Shown: positions 3,404-49,856 of the stretch, piece after piece
Numbering within the stretch: the stretch's first letter is position 1
Layout of the letters: the number at the start of each line of letters is the position of its first letter
Origin: a virus
Virus record (IMG/VR): IMGVR_UViG_3300043409_001462
Span: 64,001 to 128,000 of that record
DNA length: 64,000 bases
Strand: one strand, 5' to 3'
Translations under genes and position numbers: made by a program
Notes under the pieces: generated by a model
The model's input: only the letters and a program-made list of their open reading frames with translations
What the model was told of the DNA's origin: nothing
Databases searched by the model: none

Positions 3404-5647
3404 ATGGCAGATAAAGATTTCGTAGTTAAGAACGGTCTAGTAGTTAACACAAACTTTTCTACCAATGGTTCACAAATTACTCTCAGTACGATTAACTCTA
3501 CATCAAACGGTTTTCTTGCGACTTCAACAACTGTAACTGTTGGTAATTCTACAGTCAACAGCACAATTAATGCTAGTTCATTTACAGGCAAATCAGCTGA
3601 CTCTGATAAACTTGGTGGTGTTTTAGCTAGTGGATATCTTACTACATCAGGAGTTGCAGCCGATTCTACTAGACTTGGTGGTGTTATATCATCAGCTTAC
3701 GTCAACAGCACAGGTACTTACACTATTTCTGGCGTTCATACTCATAGCGCTAATATCGTAATTACAAATCCAGCTGGTATTTCTGCCAACAATTCATATG
3801 GCACCGCAGGTCAGTTTCTTACAACAAACGGAACAAGTACTTACTGGTCTTCTCAAAGATTATCAGCCAACAGTAATGGTGGTACTGGTGCTATTCAGTT
3901 AAATGATGCTGGTAATCTTGGATCTAATTCTAGTTTTCTTTATAACCAAACTACCAACACCATATCGATCGGTAATACTTCTGTAAGCGCCACTATCAAT
4001 TCTACTGTATATTCTGGTACATCTAACAACACTCTTTATCTTGGTGGAGTTACAGCTTCATCTTATACTAATTCTATTAATTTAACTGATAACCTTGCAA
4101 GATATACCACATCAAGTGCTTTGACAACAATATTAAGTGGTTATTTAACAACTACTGGAACAGCAGCAGATTCATCTAAACTTGGTAATGTTCTTGCAGC
4201 AAATTACGTTGCTAATAGCGGTAACTATACTATTGGTGGTGTATTAACTTTCATTAATTCATCTATTCATACTGGTAACGTAACAATCTCTAATAGTGTT
4301 ACTGCAAATGGTTCAGAAGGATCTGCAGGTCAGGTATTAACTTCTGGTGGTGCTAACAAAAACGTTTATTGGTCAGCTGCAATAAATGTTGCTTCTCAGT
4401 ACGCTTGGACTAACACTCATTCATTTTCAAACGTTGTTACGTTTAATGGTAATGCTGTATTTGCAAATGCTATCTCTGCTAATGGTGGATATGGTACGCT
4501 AGGACAGCAATTAATTTCTGGTGGTACTGGAGCTAACGCTTATTGGGGATTTGCTCCTGGCGCTAACACAGCTGGTGGTGGTGGAGCTGTTCAATTTTGG
4601 AATGGTGCAACGTTTGGTTCTGCATCAGGTCTAACATTTGCTTTGACAGGTAATAATTTATCTGTTGCTAATAGCATTAGTATTGGTGGCGTATCTATTA
4701 ACTCTACTTCTTATGGTGGTAAATCTGCTGACTCTGATAAACTGGGTGGTACATTAGCAGCTTCTTATGCGTTGAAAGCTGACGTTCATTTTATTGGTAC
4801 TACTTCTGTGGCACTCAATAGAGCTAGTGCTTCATTAAATTTAGCTGGTGTTAACATCGATGGTACAGCTGCTACTATAACTGGAGTGTATGCTGGTACA
4901 TTAACATCTTCTCAAATTACAACAGCTTTAACTTATACACCATATAATGCTACCAATCCAGCTGGTTATACTACCAATTTAGGAACTGTAACTGGTGTTA
5001 CTGCATCTGTACCTCTTTCATCAACAGGTGGAGCCACACCACAAATATCTATAACTCAAGCTGGTATCGCAACTAGTGGATTTTTATCTTCTACAGATTG
5101 GAATACTTTTAATAATAAACAAGCTGCATTACCAGCCGCTACTAGTTCTGTTTCTGGTTATCTTTCATCAACTGATTGGTCTACATTCAATAGTAAAGCT
5201 CCTACGACTACAGCTTCTGCTTCAGTTACAGGTTTACTTTCATCAACTGATTGGTCTACATTCAATAGTAAAGCTCCTTTAGCATCACCAACTTTTACTG
5301 GTACTGTAACTACTTCAAATGTAAAATTTAATAGTGCGTATTCAGCTAATGTTATATCTAGTAGTACTTCTATTAATTGTGGTTTAGGAAATTATTTCAC
5401 TGTTACTGGAGGCTCAGGAACATTTACATTCTCATTTAGTTCGGTTCCTTCTAGTGGTAATTTATATACTATGGCAATTAAAATGGTTAACAGTGGTGTA
5501 GCTCCTACAATTGTATGGCCGAACACTGTAAGATGGCCATCCGCATCTGCACCTGCAACTTCTTCTAATACTGATATTTGGGTATTTTTAACTGATGATG
5601 GTGGTTCAAATTGGCGTGGTAATTTAGCTATGAAGGATAGTAGATAA
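3404..5647 (+). CDS. Tail fibre-like structural protein
   Basis: N-terminal DFVVKNGL; S/T/N/G-rich; ADSxxLG repeats and GxLSSTDWxTFNxK repeats. Confidence 0.7.
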   Translation: MADKDFVVKNGLVVNTNFSTNGSQITLSTINSTSNGFLATSTTVTVGNSTVNSTINASSFTGKSADSDKLGGVLASGYLTTSGVAADSTRLGGVISSAYVNSTGTYTISGVHTHSANIVITNPAGISANNSYGTAGQFLTTNGTSTYWSSQRLSANSNGGTGAIQLNDAGNLGSNSSFLYNQTTNTISIGNTSVSATINSTVYSGTSNNTLYLGGVTASSYTNSINLTDNLARYTTSSALTTILSGYLTTTGTAADSSKLGNVLAANYVANSGNYTIGGVLTFINSSIHTGNVTISNSVTANGSEGSAGQVLTSGGANKNVYWSAAINVASQYAWTNTHSFSNVVTFNGNAVFANAISANGGYGTLGQQLISGGTGANAYWGFAPGANTAGGGGAVQFWNGATFGSASGLTFALTGNNLSVANSISIGGVSINSTSYGGKSADSDKLGGTLAASYALKADVHFIGTTSVALNRASASLNLAGVNIDGTAATITGVYAGTLTSSQITTALTYTPYNATNPAGYTTNLGTVTGVTASVPLSSTGGATPQISITQAGIATSGFLSSTDWNTFNNKQAALPAATSSVSGYLSSTDWSTFNSKAPTTTASASVTGLLSSTDWSTFNSKAPLASPTFTGTVTTSNVKFNSAYSANVISSSTSINCGLGNYFTVTGGSGTFTFSFSSVPSSGNLYTMAIKMVNSGVAPTIVWPNTVRWPSASAPATSSNTDIWVFLTDDGGSNWRGNLAMKDSR
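5162..5278 (+). repeat. 42-bp direct repeat within fibre gene (5162-5203, 5237-5278)
   Basis: CTTTCATCAACTGATTGGTCTACATTCAATAGTAAAGCTCCT occurs twice, 75 nt apart. Confidence 0.85.
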
Positions 5648-45107: not shown

Positions 45108-45197
45108 GGAAGAATGGCCGAGTGGTTGATGGCTCTAGTCTTGAAAACTAGCATACCTGCAAGGGTATCGTGGGTTCGAATCCTACTTCTTCCGCCA
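45108..45197 (+). tRNA. tRNA-Ser(UGA)
   Basis: Long variable arm; loop CTTGAAA; CCA. Confidence 0.93.
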
Positions 45198-45304: not shown

Positions 45305-45382
45305 CCTCCGTTGGTGTAGCGGTCTAACATACCCGCCTTTCAAGCGCGGAGATCATCGGTTCAAATCCGATACGGAGGACCA
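45305..45382 (+). tRNA. tRNA-Glu(UUC)
   Basis: Loop CTTTCAA; one anticodon-stem mismatch; CCA. Confidence 0.85.
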
Positions 45383-46056: not shown

Positions 46057-46662
46057 ATGCAAAATGAAGTGATAAGTCTTTTCCCAACAGCTGTTATGAA
46101 GTCTACATTGGACAGAAAACTTTCAAGAAAAGAAGTTAATTTTGTAAAGAAGAATTTTAAAAATATTAGAAGCAATTTGCAAAACAGTACTAGTTGTGAT
46201 AATTATATTTTAGAAAACCAAGAATTTGTTTCTTTGAAAGAGTTTATTGAAACACAGTTAGATGTATATTACAGAAAAGTATTAAATGTTGATACAAGCT
46301 CAAAGATCTACATTACACAATCATGGTTGAATTATTCTAAGCCAGGTGAATCACATCATCCACATACACATACTAATAGTTTTTTGAGTGGCGTATTCTA
46401 CATTAGCACAAATGAAAATGATAGAATTTTCTTTAGAAAACAAAAAGAATTTATACATATACCACCAACTGTTTGTAATGTTTGGAATTCTGATTTGTGG
46501 GCATTGTCAGCTGTAGAAGGATATCTTTATATTTTTCCTTCAAACCTTGAGCATTATGTGGAAAAAATAACAGGTAGTAAAACAAGAATTAGTTTGAGTT
46601 TCAATTCATTCATATCTGGAAAAATTGGAGCTCCTGATTTCTTATCAGAATTAAAGATATAA
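46057..46662 (+). CDS. 2OG-Fe(II) oxygenase (TIGR02466-like)
   Basis: LFPT, SWLN, HPHTH.NS.LSGVFY, IFPS.L.H.V, RISLSFN motifs. Confidence 0.8.
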   Translation: MQNEVISLFPTAVMKSTLDRKLSRKEVNFVKKNFKNIRSNLQNSTSCDNYILENQEFVSLKEFIETQLDVYYRKVLNVDTSSKIYITQSWLNYSKPGESHHPHTHTNSFLSGVFYISTNENDRIFFRKQKEFIHIPPTVCNVWNSDLWALSAVEGYLYIFPSNLEHYVEKITGSKTRISLSFNSFISGKIGAPDFLSELKI

Positions 46663-46741: not shown

Positions 46742-46816
46742 GGTGCCTGAGTAGGACGGTAATGCGCAGGTCTGCAAAACCTTGAGAACCCAGTTCAACT
46801 CTGGGAGGCACCTCCA
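46742..46816 (+). tRNA. tRNA-Cys(GCA)
   Basis: Loop CTGCAAA; U73; CCA. Confidence 0.88.
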
Positions 46817-46994: not shown

Positions 46995-47591
46995 ATGATT
47001 AGCAAACATTTATTGAATGAATTGAATTATATTGTAATTGATAGTGGTGTAAAGATGGAAGGTAATTTGTTTTACTACCATCAGACGACACCATCTGATA
47101 ATCTTTACGAACCTTTCGAAAAGAAACGTCAGAACCTACAGCTATTGGCTAAGAAGTTTGATAACATTATGGAGATCGGTTTCAATGCTGGCCATAGTGC
47201 TGCTTTGATGCTCGAAGCCAATCCTAATCTGTTCTTGGTTAGCATCGATATTGGTGAACATAGCTATGTTTCTTCATGCGGAAAGGCTATTCAATCTGCT
47301 TTCCCTGGAAGGCACCAGCTTATCATCAAGGATTCGAAGCTTATCACTCAGAAAGAAATTAGCTTCGCTCAAGCTGTCATCGTTGATGGTGGTCATGAAT
47401 TTGATGATTGCTCTGCAGACTTGGAGTTGTGTAAAACGTACTGCGCGCCAGGAACAGTTATCGTTATCGACGATATTGATTTGAATGGAGTGCAGCTTGC
47501 GTATAGGCATCACTCTAGAAGTTTGTCAGTATGGAAAGATATTGAAACAATATATAACCAAGCTTTCTTCACATTAAACTCGCCCGAGTAG
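46995..47591 (+). CDS. Class I SAM-dependent methyltransferase (Methyltransf_24-like)
   Basis: MEIGFNAGHS, VDGGH, VIDD motifs. Confidence 0.8.
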   Translation: MISKHLLNELNYIVIDSGVKMEGNLFYYHQTTPSDNLYEPFEKKRQNLQLLAKKFDNIMEIGFNAGHSAALMLEANPNLFLVSIDIGEHSYVSSCGKAIQSAFPGRHQLIIKDSKLITQKEISFAQAVIVDGGHEFDDCSADLELCKTYCAPGTVIVIDDIDLNGVQLAYRHHSRSLSVWKDIETIYNQAFFTLNSPE

Positions 47592-47662: not shown

Positions 47663-47774
47663 AGGTTGTGTTCAGCATACAATGGATGAACCAGTCGGTC
47701 GGGTGTTCGAGTCACCCCAGGAGCTCCTTGCTTCTGTAGCTCAGTGGTAGAGCAACTGCCAAAAAGTACAACCT
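47663..47774 (+). ncRNA. Array unit 1: YrlA-like RNA with circularly permuted tRNA module
   Basis: AGGTTGTG/TACAACCT closing stem; T-arm 47701-47717, loop-closed 7-bp acceptor stem 47718-47736, D-arm 47739-47753. Confidence 0.8.
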
Positions 47775-47788
47775 GTTGAAAATAGTGC

Positions 47789-47817
47789 TTGACTTATCCG
47801 TAGATAAAGCGTATTAT
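47789..47817 (+). promoter_or_regulatory. Promoter for array units 2-6 and DUF2828 gene
   Basis: TTGACT-17-TATTAT. Confidence 0.7.
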
Positions 47818-47833
47818 ATGTGTATTGAGTTTG

Positions 47834-47968
47834 AGATTGACCGTTCAGCAAACAGCTTTTGATCAAGCTAGTAGCCCCTGGGCTACGTATAGACTGGCTT
47901 TATACCTGGTCTCCAGTGGTTGTTTCTTCGGGCGTCCACTATAAAAAAATGAAATAAGAAGTCAATCT
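47834..47968 (+). ncRNA. Array unit 2: Y-RNA-like, multi-hairpin cargo
   Basis: AGATTGAC/GTCAATCT stem; GTTCAGCA motif; CTGTTGAG linker. Confidence 0.7.
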
Positions 47969-47978
47969 GTTGAGTTTT

Positions 47979-48067
47979 AGGAAGCATTCGGCAAACAATT
48001 ATTGATTGGTTCAACTCCAATACCAGCGGTTCACGCTAGTACGCCTCGTGTGGGGCAACTGCTTCCT
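47979..48067 (+). ncRNA. Array unit 3: degenerate YrlA-like RNA
   Basis: AGGAAGCA/TGCTTCCT stem; TTCGGCA; T-arm ATTGG-TTCAACT-CCAAT, acceptor-like and D-like hairpins. Confidence 0.7.
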
Positions 48068-48077
48068 GTTGAGTTCT

Positions 48078-48135
48078 AGGATTGTTACAGCATAAATGCA
48101 CTTGATTTGTAATCAAACCCGCAAAGGGCAATCCT
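48078..48135 (+). ncRNA. Array unit 4: Y-RNA-like with Thr(UGU) anticodon-arm mimic
   Basis: AGGATTG/CAATCCT stem; TTACAGCA; TTGA-TTTGTAA-TCAA. Confidence 0.7.
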
Positions 48136-48145
48136 GTTGAGTTTT

Positions 48146-48197
48146 AGGGTCAGTTCCGCATCTAAAATGATTGCATATATCAAACCAAGATGACCCT
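48146..48197 (+). ncRNA. Array unit 5: Y-RNA-like with 7-nt-loop hairpin
   Basis: AGGGTCA/TGACCCT stem; GTTCCGCA; TGAT-TGCATAT-ATCA. Confidence 0.7.
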
Positions 48198-48206
48198 GTT
48201 GAGTTT

Positions 48207-48259
48207 AGATTCAGTTCCGCAACCAATCAAATCGACTTGAAATCGACCAAAGTGAATCT
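48207..48259 (+). ncRNA. Array unit 6: Y-RNA-like with Ser(UGA) anticodon-arm mimic
   Basis: AGATTCA/TGAATCT stem; GTTCCGCA; TCGA-CTTGAAA-TCGA. Confidence 0.7.
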
Positions 48260-48280
48260 GTCGTAAAATGGAGAAGTGAA

Positions 48281-49711
48281 ATGAATACCTTTGTAAATGC
48301 CGTTGTTAATCAGGAAGCTCGTACCGAAAATGGTATGAAGGCTCGCCAGTCTACTGCTAATGCATTGACTGATCTGTTCTTCAAGATCGGTGCTATGCGT
48401 GGTCAGAATGTAATTCCTGCTTGGACTGCTGCTCGTGCTCATGATACTTTGCTTGCATCTCGTATCGCTCTTTGGGCACGTGATGTTCGTGGTGGTGCTG
48501 GTGAACGTAAAATCTTCCGTGACATTTTAGTTGATCTTGCTTCAGCTGATCCTCATCGTGGTGTGGCTCTTGGTCGTAAGATTCCAGAGCTTGGTCGTTG
48601 GGATGACTTCCTTGTGTTCGTTGGTACCCCTCTTGAGGAGTATGCGTTCGAAACTATCCGCGAAGCTCTCGAAGCTGGTAATGGTCTCTGTGCAAAGTGG
48701 ATGCCTCGTCAAGGTGAAACAGCTGTAAAGCTTCGTAAGTACCTTGGTTGGACTCCTAAGTTCTACCGAAAGCGTCTGGTTGAATTGACCAAGGTTGTCG
48801 AAACTCAGATGTGCGCTAAGGACTGGGATAACATCAACTTCAACCATGTTCCTTCGGTTGCTTCTTCTCGTTACAAGAAGGCATTCGCTCGTCATACTGA
48901 CAAGTACAAGGAATGGACTGCGGCTCTTGTTTCTACTGATCCAGAGGTGGCTAAGTCTGTTAAGGTCAATGCTGGTGCGGTTTATCCTTACGATGTGTTG
49001 AAGGGTGTGATTAATCATTATGGGCGTTATGATCAATCTAACTTGAATCATATCCTTGCTCAGTGGGAAGCTTTGCCTAACTTCGTTGGTAATGCTAACA
49101 TTCTTCCGCTTGTTGACGTTTCTGGTTCAATGACTTCGAAGGCTGGTGGTTATCAGTCAAAGTCAGAAGTAACCTGCCTTGATGTTGCAGTTTCTCTTGG
49201 TCTGTATCTCGCAGACAAAAACAAGGGTAAGTTCAAGGATACTTTCTTGACCTTCTCTAGCGATCCTCAGCTGCTTCATCTTCGCGGTAACATCCTCGAT
49301 AAGGTAAAGCAGATGGTATCTTCAAAGTGGGAAATGAACACCAATTTGCATCGTGCGTTGGATAAGATCCTTCGCACCGCGATTGAAGGTAACGTTCCTC
49401 AGTCAGAAATGCCAGGTGCATTGTTGATCCTTTCTGATATGCAGTTTGATTCTTGCACTCGTCACGATGACTCTGCTATGGAAATGATTAAGCGTAAGTA
49501 TGTTGATGCTGGTTACAATGTACCTAACATTGTGTTCTGGAATCTCAATGCTCACGACAATGTTCCTGTCAAGTATGACACTCGTGGTGCTGCTCTTGTT
49601 TCTGGTTTCTCACCTTCTATCGTTAAGGCTGTTCTGCAGGCTGAGATGGATAACTTTACGCCAGAAGCTATCATGATGCAAACCATTATGAACCCACGAT
49701 ATGACTACTAA
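48281..49711 (+). CDS. DUF2828-family protein (Ro60/TROVE-like helical domain + C-terminal vWA)
   Basis: TENG, RDVRGG.GER, AKWMPR, VPSVA..YKKAF..H; MIDAS DVSGSM; SDMQFD, FWNL, SGFS. Confidence 0.8.
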   Translation: MNTFVNAVVNQEARTENGMKARQSTANALTDLFFKIGAMRGQNVIPAWTAARAHDTLLASRIALWARDVRGGAGERKIFRDILVDLASADPHRGVALGRKIPELGRWDDFLVFVGTPLEEYAFETIREALEAGNGLCAKWMPRQGETAVKLRKYLGWTPKFYRKRLVELTKVVETQMCAKDWDNINFNHVPSVASSRYKKAFARHTDKYKEWTAALVSTDPEVAKSVKVNAGAVYPYDVLKGVINHYGRYDQSNLNHILAQWEALPNFVGNANILPLVDVSGSMTSKAGGYQSKSEVTCLDVAVSLGLYLADKNKGKFKDTFLTFSSDPQLLHLRGNILDKVKQMVSSKWEMNTNLHRALDKILRTAIEGNVPQSEMPGALLILSDMQFDSCTRHDDSAMEMIKRKYVDAGYNVPNIVFWNLNAHDNVPVKYDTRGAALVSGFSPSIVKAVLQAEMDNFTPEAIMMQTIMNPRYDY

Positions 49712-49780: not shown

Positions 49781-49856
49781 GCTGCAATAGCTCAGTTGGT
49801 AGAGCACTTGATTAGTAATCAAGATGTCGCGAGTTCGATCCTTGCTTGCAGCACCA
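49781..49856 (+). tRNA. tRNA-Thr(AGU)
   Basis: CTTGA-TTAGTAA-TCAAG anticodon arm; canonical D/T arms; CCA. Confidence 0.9.

What the first reader, a model, noticed from the sequence alone, without database searches (positions are those of the whole stretch)
48078..48259. Units 4-6 display isolated anticodon-arm mimics, possibly decoys for anticodon nucleases
Seen: unit 4 holds GCACTTGA-TTTGTAA-TCAA, nearly identical to the anticodon arm of the phage tRNA-Thr at 49804 (GCACTTGA-TTAGTAA-TCAA) but with UGU. Unit 6 holds TCGA-CTTGAAA-TCGA, the same 7-nt loop as tRNA-Ser(UGA) at 45108. Unit 5 has a 4-bp stem with a 7-nt loop centred on CAT but lacks U33, so it is weaker. Inference: these minimal units present anticodon loops as decoys or sensors for host anticodon nucleases or tRNA-modifying enzymes, complementing the elbow mimics in units 1 and 3.
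Basis: partly seen in the sequence, partly recalled or inferred. Interest (0 to 1): 0.75.

Follow-up and report, generated by a model that had tools for sequence, protein, structure and literature searches.

The report
Anticodon-arm mimics on phage Y-like RNAs
Two of the three small RNA units in front of a phage gene for a Ro60-like ring protein display selected copies of the anticodon hairpins of threonine and serine tRNAs, and many related phages show the same with other anticodons, so these RNAs probably bait proteins that read or cut tRNA anticodons.

Summary
Units 4-6 (48078-48259) are the last three of six tandem "handle + cargo" RNAs in front of a DUF2828/DUF7788 gene. The protein's predicted fold matches only Ro60 structures over its full length.

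- **Unit 4:** shows a 4-bp stem with the loop UUUGUAA, as in tRNA-Thr(UGU).
- **Unit 6:** shows a 4-bp stem with the loop CUUGAAA, as in tRNA-Ser(UGA).
- **Unit 5:** has a conserved hairpin, but its loop (UGCAUAU) lacks U33 and varies from 6 to 9 nt in relatives. It is not anticodon-like.

In 81 related arrays, 36 of 73 distinct small units carry a 7-nt Y-U-NNN-R loop (shuffles give 0.8) and 29 carry C-U-NNN-A-A (shuffles give 0.14). A second set of 48 loci gave 11 of 28 (shuffles 0.6). The loops equal those of real phage tRNAs with the same anticodon. The stems covary while the loops stay fixed.

Anticodon-arm mimicry is therefore well supported. The decoy role against anticodon nucleases remains an inference (about 35%). 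Docking of tRNA-modifying or other anticodon-binding proteins is the main rival.

I found no published description. This scan has already noted the same RNA-protein system, including anticodon-arm cargo, on other DNA.

The parts
48078..48135 (+). Unit 4. Handle: closing stem AGGATTG/CAATCCT with the motif TTACAGCA. Cargo: a tRNA-Thr(UGU)-like anticodon arm, stem 48102-48105/48113-48116 and loop UUUGUAA 48106-48112, flanked by a conserved GC...GC clamp.
   Evidence: Orthologues in 19 loci keep the loop YUUGUAA, and 4 of 5 stem pairs change on both sides (A3). Stem pair probability 0.74-0.94.
48146..48197 (+). Unit 5. Handle AGGGTCA/TGACCCT with GTTCCGCA. Cargo: hairpin TGAT-UGCAUAU-ATCA (48168-48182). 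Not anticodon-like.
   Evidence: Orthologous loops are UGCAUAC, UUGCAU, CGCAAAA, CGGCAAU, UGCUAAU and CGCACAGAU, so length varies from 6 to 9 nt and there is no U33.
48207..48259 (+). Unit 6, the unit next to the gene. Handle AGATTCA/TGAATCT with GTTCCGCA. Cargo: a tRNA-Ser(UGA)-like anticodon arm, stem 48232-48235/48243-48246 and loop CUUGAAA 48236-48242.
   Evidence: Six different stems carry the same loop in 13 loci, and 4 of 5 pairs change on both sides (A2). The loop is identical to that of 18 of 18 real tRNA-Ser(UGA) in the loci.
47663..48067 (+). Units 1-3 of the same array, with larger cargo. Unit 1 (47663-47774) is YrlA-like. Units 2 and 3 lie at 47834-47968 and 47979-48067. They share the handle.
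   Evidence: scanner; unit 1 scores 39 bits against Rfam YrlA, below the gathering score of 69.
47789..47817 (+). Sigma-70-like promoter TTGACT-17-TATTAT between units 1 and 2. It probably drives units 2-6 and the gene.
   Evidence: 10 of 12 matches. Kept in L002 and L003. No terminator-like site before 49744.
48281..49711 (+). Gene for a 476-aa DUF2828 + DUF7788 protein, a Ro60-like ring with a vWA domain and MIDAS motif DVSGS. It is the presumed protein partner of the handle. RBS GGAG at 48270-48273, 11 nt after unit 6.
   Evidence: Pfam. AF2 model, pLDDT 77. The 13 matches with E <= 0.001, all full length, are all Ro60 structures: 9KOP, 2I91, 1YVR, 2NVO, 9NEN, E 1e-7 to 7.5e-4. Invariant D279-S283.
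49781..49856 (+). tRNA-Thr(AGU), whose anticodon arm is 15/17 identical to the unit 4 cargo. Comparator and possible relative of the cargo.
45108..45197 (+). tRNA-Ser(UGA). It has the same 7-nt loop as unit 6 but a different stem. Comparator.

Best explanation
Units 4 and 6 are small RNAs of about 55 nt belonging to a handle-plus-cargo family. The family travels with a phage Ro60-like protein (DUF2828/DUF7788).

The handle is a 7-bp closing stem, an unpaired (G)UUC-N-GCA on the 5' side and a CAAAG-like run on the 3' side. It is most likely the protein's binding site, as the conserved stem is in Y RNAs. The apical cargo is what the particle shows to the cell.

In unit 4 the cargo is a mimic of the tRNA-Thr(UGU) anticodon stem-loop. 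In unit 6 it mimics tRNA-Ser(UGA). Unit 5 shows a different conserved loop.

The array is transcribed with the gene from the promoter at 47789 and is probably cut at the conserved GUUGAGUUU spacers.

I commit to the reading that the displayed anticodon arms act as baits that occupy or trap host proteins that recognise anticodon loops, most likely tRNA-cleaving defence nucleases, thereby sparing real tRNAs.

Shown: the array anatomy, the Ro60-like fold, the anticodon-loop identity, the enrichment and the covariation.
Inferred: protein binding to the handle, processing, expression level and the decoy action.

Odds: selected anticodon-arm mimicry about 0.9; bait for some anticodon-loop-binding protein about 0.6; decoy or trap for anticodon nucleases about 0.35.
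For: - **Handle family is real and tied to the gene.** 302 scanner hits on the gene strand against 28 on the other strand. 236 hits in 110 kb upstream of the gene against 66 in 465 kb elsewhere. Only the six array units in the whole 173-kb genome pass the stricter handle filter (motif plus a following GT) and lie in an array; three scattered hits that pass it are probably chance.
- **Protein partner.** The 13 structure matches with E <= 0.001, all full length, are all Ro60.
- **Enrichment.** 36 of 73 distinct small units have a >=4-bp stem with a 7-nt Y-U-NNN-R loop (shuffle mean 0.77, maximum 4). 29 of 73 have C-U-NNN-A-A (shuffle mean 0.14). Of 67 distinct 7-nt loops, 21 are C-U-NNN-A-A against 0.6 expected from composition (binomial P 1e-26).
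- **Replication.** In 48 further loci, 11 of 28 units against 0.57, and 8 of 28 against 0.09.
- **Loops match real tRNAs with the same anticodon.** CUUGAAA in 18/18 tRNA-Ser(UGA), CUGUUAA in 16/16 tRNA-Asn, CUCUUAA in 5/5 tRNA-Lys(CUU), UUUGUAA in 16/25 tRNA-Thr(UGU).
- **Covariation.** Loops are invariant while 4 of 5 stem pairs change on both sides, in both the Ser-type and the Thr-type unit.
- **The anticodon varies between phages on a fixed C32-U33 / A37-A38 frame.** Seen: UGU, UGA, UCU, CAU, GAA, GUA, GCA, GUU, CUU, UAU, UUU. One pair of orthologous units differs by a single base, Thr to Lys (L138/L142).
- **A panel that changes between phages is what an arms race would give.**
- **Literature.** Y RNAs tether Ro60 to partners and YrlA mimics tRNA (PMC4201824). 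A phage Ro60 binds two upstream Y-like RNAs (PMC12135203). The Ro60-like gp130 of phage Bas63 counters the Ppl defence (PMC11482910). Abundant ncRNAs lie near an Rsr-like gene in a Listeria phage (PMC12282133).
Against: - There are no expression, binding or cleavage data for any of these RNAs.
- The mimic stems are AU-rich (29% GC against 59% in real tRNA arms). In this window they are only 4 bp long.
- The unit 6 hairpin has a predicted pair probability of 0.09 when folded alone.
- A decoy must compete with very abundant tRNAs, and the copy number of these RNAs is unknown.
- About half of the small units, including unit 5, carry no anticodon-like loop. Decoying cannot be the family's only job.
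- The only tested Ro60-like phage protein (Bas63 gp130) counters Ppl, which is not known to be an anticodon nuclease (PMC11482910).
- The host and its defences are unknown.
Confidence: 0.35

Rival explanations
1. Docking rather than decoy. The anticodon arm recruits a host or phage protein that reads anticodon loops to the Ro60-like particle, or carries the particle to it, in the way Y RNA loops tether Ro60 to PNPase. Candidates are A37-modifying enzymes such as MiaA or the t6A machinery, aminoacyl-tRNA synthetases such as ThrRS or MetRS, or the ribosomal decoding site.
For: The tethering role of Y RNAs is established, and YrlA is a substrate of tRNA-modifying enzymes (PMC4201824). Every anticodon seen on small units ends in A or U at position 36 and is followed by A37-A38, whereas 30% of real tRNAs with C-U-NNN-A-A loops have G or C at 36. 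From established knowledge, A36-A37-A38 is the MiaA determinant and U36-A37 the t6A determinant. Also from my own knowledge, the E. coli thrS operator is a precedent for an anticodon-arm mimic that binds ThrRS.
Against: SerRS does not read the anticodon (established knowledge), yet the Ser(UGA) arm is the most widespread gene-proximal cargo. No modifying enzyme is known to need a Ro-like partner. The bias at position 36 rests on about 12 anticodon types in AT-rich cargo (P about 0.01).
Confidence: 0.25
2. Leader or autoregulatory element. The units, above all unit 6, which ends 11 nt before the RBS, are binding sites through which the DUF2828 protein controls its own mRNA. In this reading the cargo hairpins only stabilise the fold.
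For: There is no terminator between unit 6 and the gene, and the array and the gene share one promoter. A small unit sits directly before the RBS in nearly all arrays.
Against: This does not explain why the loop sequence is fixed while the stems change. It does not explain why the loops equal natural anticodon loops. It does not explain why arrays hold up to eight units, or why such units also lie far from the gene in other phages (earlier notes of this scan, not checked here). It can coexist with the best explanation.
Confidence: 0.1
3. Relics. The hairpins are decaying pieces of tRNA genes captured in the tRNA cluster. They look like anticodon arms by descent and the likeness has no use.
For: Unit 4 is 15/17 identical to the arm of the phage's own tRNA-Thr(AGU), and the match extends into GCA upstream. 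The array lies inside a cluster of 24 tRNA genes.
Against: The loops are invariant across loci whose proteins are only 61-66% identical, and the stems are replaced by compensating changes. The stems do not follow the local tRNA: L002 keeps the unit 4 stem while its tRNA-Thr(AGU) stem differs. The GCA is conserved in orthologues with quite different stems.
Confidence: 0.04
4. Chance resemblance in AT-rich intergenic DNA.
For: The stems are short and AT-rich, and one 7-nt identity alone is not rare.
Against: Shuffle and composition controls, and the replication set.
Confidence: 0.01

Closest known systems
Ro60 (Rsr) with Y RNAs: bacterial and phage YrlA/YrlB (Rfam RF02553; Chen et al. 2014, PMC4201824) and Thermus phage phiLo Ro60 with Yrl1/Yrl2 (PMC12135203)
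   Same: Small RNAs are encoded just upstream of a Ro60-fold gene. Their 5' and 3' ends pair in a stem with a conserved unpaired motif. A variable module imitates tRNA. Several RNAs come from one precursor.
   Different: The protein is DUF2828/DUF7788, not Pfam TROVE, and has no sequence-level match to solved Ro60 structures. The handle motif is (U)UC-N-GCA(A), not GNCGAA. YrlA imitates the tRNA elbow (acceptor, T and D arms) and lacks an anticodon arm, whereas units 4 and 6 show only the anticodon arm. There are up to eight units per array. No Rfam family matches units 4-6.
Whole phage tRNAs that defeat tRNA-cleaving defences: T5 tRNA-Lys against PARIS and T5 tRNA-Tyr against PtuAB (my own knowledge), and escape changes in the anticodon loops of phage tRNAs (van den Berg et al. 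2023, cited in PMC11482910)
   Same: Phage-encoded RNA with a tRNA anticodon loop, in a tRNA cluster, with a possible role against anticodon nucleases.
   Different: Those are full tRNAs that can be charged and that replace cut host tRNAs. Units 4 and 6 have no acceptor, D or T arm and cannot decode. They would work only by binding.
Anticodon-arm mimics in mRNAs: the E. coli thrS operator, which binds ThrRS (my own knowledge), and poliovirus IRES domain V, which binds GlyRS (PMC3384309)
   Same: An isolated hairpin copies an anticodon loop in order to bind a protein that reads that loop. The thrS case also copies tRNA-Thr.
   Different: Those act in cis on one mRNA and bind a synthetase. Here the mimics sit on separate handle-tagged RNAs, as panels with many different anticodons, including Ser, whose synthetase ignores the anticodon.
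Class I RNAs of dictyostelid amoebae (Kjellin et al. 2021, PMC7919456)
   Same: They are 42-65 nt long, have a short terminal stem joining the ends, a conserved 11-nt unpaired motif just after the 5' strand, and a variable remainder. The paper gives T, C, C, A, A at motif positions 3, 6, 9, 10 and 11, which fits UUACAGCA(A) in unit 4 and its orthologues.
   Different: They are eukaryotic and no Ro-like partner is reported. I read only the positions in the paper. The full motif letters come from my memory and from earlier notes of this scan, so this is a lead and not a test.

Membership tests
tRNA anticodon stem-loop (as a mimic) | 7-nt loop with pyrimidine 32, U33, purine 37 | tested here: met
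   Unit 4 UUUGUAA and unit 6 CUUGAAA. Unit 5 UGCAUAU fails on U33. The pattern holds in 571 of 589 real tRNAs of the loci.
tRNA anticodon stem-loop (as a mimic) | 5-bp stem closing the loop | tested here: inconclusive
   In the window there are 4 bp plus a C.A (unit 4) or A.C (unit 6) mismatch at the fifth pair. Most orthologues have 5 bp, for example TTTGT/ACAAA and TACAA/TTGTA.
tRNA anticodon stem-loop (as a mimic) | Loop equals the natural loop of tRNAs with that anticodon | tested here: met
   CUUGAAA in 18/18 tRNA-Ser(UGA). UUUGUAA in 16/25 and CUUGUAA in 6/25 tRNA-Thr(UGU).
tRNA anticodon stem-loop (as a mimic) | Hairpin kept by selection (covariation, fixed loop) | tested here: met
   A2: 4 of 5 pairs with changes on both sides, 0 of 500 shuffles reach the score. 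A3: the same result.
tRNA gene | Cloverleaf with acceptor, D and T arms, recognised by ARAGORN or Rfam RF00005 | tested here: not met
   No tRNA call in 48078-48259. The units are 52-58 nt long.
Y RNA (YrlA, Rfam RF02553) | Match to the covariance model at or above the gathering score | tested here: not met
   No hit in units 4-6 at E <= 10. Unit 1 scores 39 bits against a gathering score of 69.
Y RNA (functional class) | Encoded next to a Ro60 orthologue | tested here: met
   The adjacent gene's model matches Ro60 structures only, over its full length. It is Ro60-like by fold, not by Pfam TROVE or by sequence.
Y RNA (functional class) | Terminal stem with a conserved Ro-binding motif (GNCGAA / CGAA bulge) | tested here: not met
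   A terminal stem and a conserved unpaired motif are present, but the motif is (G)UUC-N-GCA with a 3' CAAAG.
Y RNA (functional class) | Bound and stabilised by the Ro60 protein | not testable with these tools
   Needs co-immunoprecipitation or a gel-shift assay.
Anticodon-nuclease decoy | Binds or is cut by an anticodon nuclease and protects tRNA or phage growth | not testable with these tools
Dictyostelid Class I RNA | About 60 nt, 6-bp terminal stem, 11-nt motif with T3, C6, C9, A10, A11 | tested here: inconclusive
   Unit 4 (..TG TTACAGCAT) fits 4 of the 5 fixed positions, and its orthologue in L023 fits 5 of 5. Rfam gave no such hit.

The most novel reading that the evidence does not exclude
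Phages carry a changeable panel of anticodon-arm baits mounted on a Ro60-like ring. Each bait neutralises or senses one host enzyme that cuts or reads a particular tRNA anticodon. Single-base changes in the bait's anticodon (seen as Thr to Lys between orthologous units) retarget it. The neighbouring tRNA-Thr(AGU), which has the same arm as unit 4 but an altered wobble base, would be the resistant working copy, and unit 4 the sensitive-looking bait.
Probability: 0.3. Interest if true: 0.9.

Novelty: new variant of a known kind. Interest (0 to 1): 0.7.

Why it matters
What Ro60 and its Y RNAs do in bacteria and phages, and why Y RNAs imitate tRNA, are still open questions. A family in which the imitated part shrinks to the anticodon hairpin, with the anticodon changing between phages, points to a definite class of partners: proteins that read anticodon loops.

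This turns the question into simple experiments. These are binding or cleavage of a 55-nt RNA, deletion of a unit in a cultured phage, and pull-downs.

If the baits block tRNA-cutting defence enzymes, this would be a new RNA-based way for phages to evade immunity. The anticodon on each bait would then tell which tRNA the host attacks.

Tried and rejected
- **Nucleotide search of 50,697 phage records with the array.** Only tRNA-Leu matched, so there is no close cultured relative.
- **phmmer of the protein against PDB sequences.** No Ro60 match. The likeness appears only at the fold level.
- **First structure job.** The machine did not answer. The job was repeated successfully.
- **Rfam at E <= 10.** Nothing in units 4-6.
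- **Literature.** "DUF2828" returns only unrelated plant and tardigrade papers. Searches for anticodon-arm mimics or decoys in phages found no description of these RNAs.
- **Unit 5 as a Met/CAU anticodon mimic.** Rejected, because orthologous loops vary in length and lack U33.
- **Unit 4 as a recent copy of the phage's own tRNA-Thr(AGU).** Not settled. The identity of 15/17 is the best in the window, but grafted-stem controls reach 12-15. The unit type is old and its stem does not follow the local tRNA.
- **T-loops.** T-loops (UUCGAAU) satisfy Y-U-NNN-R, so the large-unit count (38 of 106) is inflated. The claim rests on small units and on the strict C-U-NNN-A-A pattern.
- **RNA-repair context.** No RtcB or Rnl2-type ligase in the 173-kb genome. 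The Rnl1 search had no working control.
- **Neighbouring genes.** Clamp loader, 2OG-Fe(II) oxygenase, methyltransferase, amidotransferase-like and a solute-binding protein. These give no clue to the function.

Full report
**What is there.** The stretch 48078-48259 holds the last three of six tandem units (47663-48259) that lie between a tRNA cluster and an ORF at 48281-49711.
- Each unit starts with AG plus 5-6 nt, which pair with the unit's last 7 nt ending in CT.
- Each has an unpaired (G)UUC-N-GCA after the 5' strand and a CAAAG-like run before the 3' strand.
- Each is followed by a GTTGAGTTT spacer.
- A sigma-70-like promoter (TTGACT-17-TATTAT, 47789-47817) lies between units 1 and 2.
- No terminator-like site occurs before 49744, so units 2-6 and the gene look like one transcription unit.
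- Unit 6 ends 11 nt before the GGAG of the gene.

**The neighbouring protein.**
- The ORF product (476 aa) matches Pfam DUF2828 and DUF7788.
- By sequence it finds no solved structure.
- An AlphaFold2 model built on 56 homologues (pLDDT 77) matches only Ro60 structures with E <= 0.001, all over the full length. These are Thermus phage phiLo Ro60 (9KOP, 9L5Y), Xenopus Ro60 (2I91, 1YVR, 1YVP), Deinococcus Rsr (2NVO) and human Ro60, with E from 1e-7 to 7.5e-4. Isolated vWA/MIDAS domains follow.
- The MIDAS motif DVSGS is invariant.
- Homologues occur in 711 phage records from many hosts.
- Unit 1 gives a sub-threshold match to Rfam YrlA (39 bits; gathering score 69). Nothing in Rfam matches units 4-6.
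- The genome is a 173-kb viral record, rated complete, with 29 tRNA genes. Its only array of handle units is this one. It has no RtcB or Rnl2-type ligase.

**Check of the observation.**
- Unit 4 holds TTGA-TTTGTAA-TCAA at 48102-48116. Together with the preceding GCAC it matches the arm of tRNA-Thr(AGU) at 49804, and over the 17-nt arm the identity is 15/17.
- Unit 6 holds TCGA-CTTGAAA-TCGA at 48232-48246, with the loop of tRNA-Ser(UGA) at 45108.
- Unit 5 holds TGAT-TGCATAT-ATCA, without U33.
- Folded alone, the unit 4 stem is well predicted (pair probabilities 0.74-0.94). The unit 6 and unit 5 stems are not (0.07-0.09).

I fetched 80 viral contigs encoding relatives of the protein (61-93% identity). 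I scanned them with a pattern that uses only the handle: AG, GCA at offset 10-16, a 7-bp closing stem and CTG.
- Specificity of the scan: 302 hits on the gene strand against 28 on the other strand, and 236 within 1.6 kb upstream of the gene against 66 in four times more DNA elsewhere.
- There are 73 distinct units of 70 nt or less. In 41 of them the longest-stem hairpin has a 7-nt loop, against about 7 in shuffled cargo.
- 36 units have a >=4-bp stem closing a Y-U-NNN-R loop (shuffles: mean 0.77, maximum 4 in 500).
- 29 units have C-U-NNN-A-A (shuffles: mean 0.14).
- Given that a 7-nt loop exists, 21 of 67 distinct loops are C-U-NNN-A-A against 0.6 expected from base composition (P about 1e-26).
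- A second, non-overlapping set of 48 loci, reached through the Synechococcus phage BUCT-ZZ01 protein, gave 11 of 28 units (shuffles 0.57) and 8 of 28 (shuffles 0.09).
- For comparison, 571 of 589 real tRNAs in the same loci fit the loose pattern and 295 fit the strict one.

The predicted enrichment is large.

**The loops are real anticodon loops, and they are selected.**
- The unit loops equal the commonest loops of real tRNAs with the same anticodon:

| Loop | Real tRNAs with this loop |
|---|---|
| CUUGAAA | 18 of 18 tRNA-Ser(UGA) |
| CUGUUAA | 16 of 16 tRNA-Asn |
| CUCUUAA | 5 of 5 tRNA-Lys(CUU) |
| CUCAUAA | 25 of 44 tRNA-Met |
| CUUCUAA | 10 of 17 tRNA-Arg(UCU) |
| UUUGUAA | 16 of 25 tRNA-Thr(UGU) |
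| CUUGUAA | 6 of 25 tRNA-Thr(UGU) |

(all)
- In the Ser-type unit (orthologues of unit 6), six different stems carry the same loop. Four of five stem pairs change on both sides, and no shuffle or slid register comes near (A2).
- The Thr-type unit (orthologues of unit 4) behaves the same way and has an extra conserved GC...GC clamp (A3).
- Between phages the three middle letters change while C32-U33 and A37-A38 stay. Small units show UGU, UGA, UCU, CAU, GAA, GUA, GCA, GUU, CUU and UAU. Larger units and further loci add UUU.
- One orthologous pair differs by a single base that turns Thr(UGU) into Lys(UUU) (L138 and L142).
- The cultured Synechococcus phage BUCT-ZZ01 has a unit with UUUCAA-CUUUUAC-UUGAAA.
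- All anticodons on small units end in A or U. Of real tRNAs with the same loop frame, 30% end in G or C. This is a modest bias (about 0.01 for 12 anticodon types).
- The mimic stems are much more AU-rich than real arms (29% against 59% GC).

**Unit 5.** Its orthologues keep a hairpin at that place, but the loops are 6-9 nt long: UGCAUAC, UUGCAU, CGCAAAA, CGGCAAU, UGCUAAU, CGCACAGAU. They share YGCA and have no U33. It is a different, unexplained cargo class and not an anticodon mimic.

**Is unit 4 a copy of the phage's own tRNA?** The likeness to tRNA-Thr(AGU) is the best in the window. However, the unit type with its GCA is present in distant loci with other stems. In L002 the unit keeps its stem while the local tRNA-Thr(AGU) has another. 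Grafting other mimic stems onto the loop gives 9-15 of 17. I take it as a possible old relationship, not a recent copy. The A34 of that tRNA is unusual and is shared by the closest relatives.

**How it most likely works.**
- By analogy with Y RNAs, the handle binds the Ro60-like protein and the cargo is displayed. In Y RNAs a conserved stem binds Ro60 and a variable module engages partners, and YrlA imitates the tRNA elbow (PMC4201824, PMC12135203).
- An isolated anticodon arm can only be read by something that recognises anticodon loops. I rank decoy or trap for tRNA-cleaving defence nucleases first (about 0.35).
- Reasons for that ranking: the panel changes between phages as in an arms race; the phage also carries working tRNAs for the same anticodons; it has no RNA ligase for repair; and a Ro60-like phage protein has been shown to counter a defence system (Bas63 gp130 against Ppl, PMC11482910).
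- Docking of A37-modifying enzymes or other anticodon readers is the main rival (0.25). It would explain the restriction to A or U at position 36.
- An autoregulatory role for unit 6 may coexist with either reading.
- Binding, processing, abundance and any effect on nucleases are inferred, not shown.

**Comparison with what is known, and novelty.**
- The system works like a Ro60-Y RNA particle but fails two membership tests for YrlA-type Y RNAs. It has no model match, and its handle motif differs.
- Its protein is Ro60-like only by fold.
- Anticodon-arm mimics are known in mRNAs (the thrS operator; poliovirus IRES, PMC3384309). Whole phage tRNAs are known counter-defences. Panels of anticodon arms on Y-like RNAs were not found in the literature searched.
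- Earlier notes of this scan report the same handle family, including anticodon-arm cargo, in many other genomes. The thing is therefore new to the literature I could search, but not new to this scan.
- Those notes also point to the Class I RNAs of dictyostelids. The published architecture and fixed motif positions fit, but I did not test this further.

Noticed in passing
window 45305-45382: A tRNA with anticodon UCA (ARAGORN labels it SeC). It may be an opal suppressor in a phage whose genes read normally under table 11.
   Followed up: no
window 49781-49856; also L001 4504-4579, L003 2978-3053, L002 19-94, L012 5879-5954: tRNA-Thr with the unusual anticodon AGU (A34), directly after the DUF2828 gene and shared by the closest relatives. 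Its anticodon arm is 15/17 identical to the unit 4 cargo.
   Followed up: partly
window 46742-46813: Rfam tRNA hit (44 bits) that ARAGORN did not call, between tRNA-Gln and tRNA-Gly.
   Followed up: no
window 47910-47956 (inside unit 2): A hairpin followed by an A-run (CCACTATAAAAAAATGAAA) gives a weak PreQ1-I-like hit (E 0.65). The element is kept in unit 2 orthologues of L002-L006.
   Followed up: no
window 46057-46662 and 46995-47591: Genes for a 2OG-Fe(II) oxygenase and a Methyltransf_24 protein sit inside the tRNA cluster. They may be nucleic-acid-modifying enzymes.
   Followed up: no
L138 1881-1944 and L142 1880-1941: Orthologous small units that differ in the loop by one base, CTTGTAA against CTTTTAA. 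This switches the displayed anticodon from Thr(UGU) to Lys(UUU).
   Followed up: partly
L081 about 3600-3860 (Synechococcus phage BUCT-ZZ01) and L082 about 3900-4125 (Citrobacter phage Ci1, annotated tRNA-Pseudo-AAC): tRNA-shaped RNAs with open acceptor ends, in which the anticodon loop is replaced by a capped hairpin carrying the handle motif (..CTACAGCAAAAC.., ..TTCTGCAATC..). This is the opposite topology to units 1-6.
   Followed up: no
window 48146-48197 (unit 5) and its orthologues: A second conserved cargo class. It has a hairpin whose loop contains YGCA (UGCAUAU, UGCAUAC, CGCAAAA, CGGCAAU). What it imitates is unknown.
   Followed up: partly
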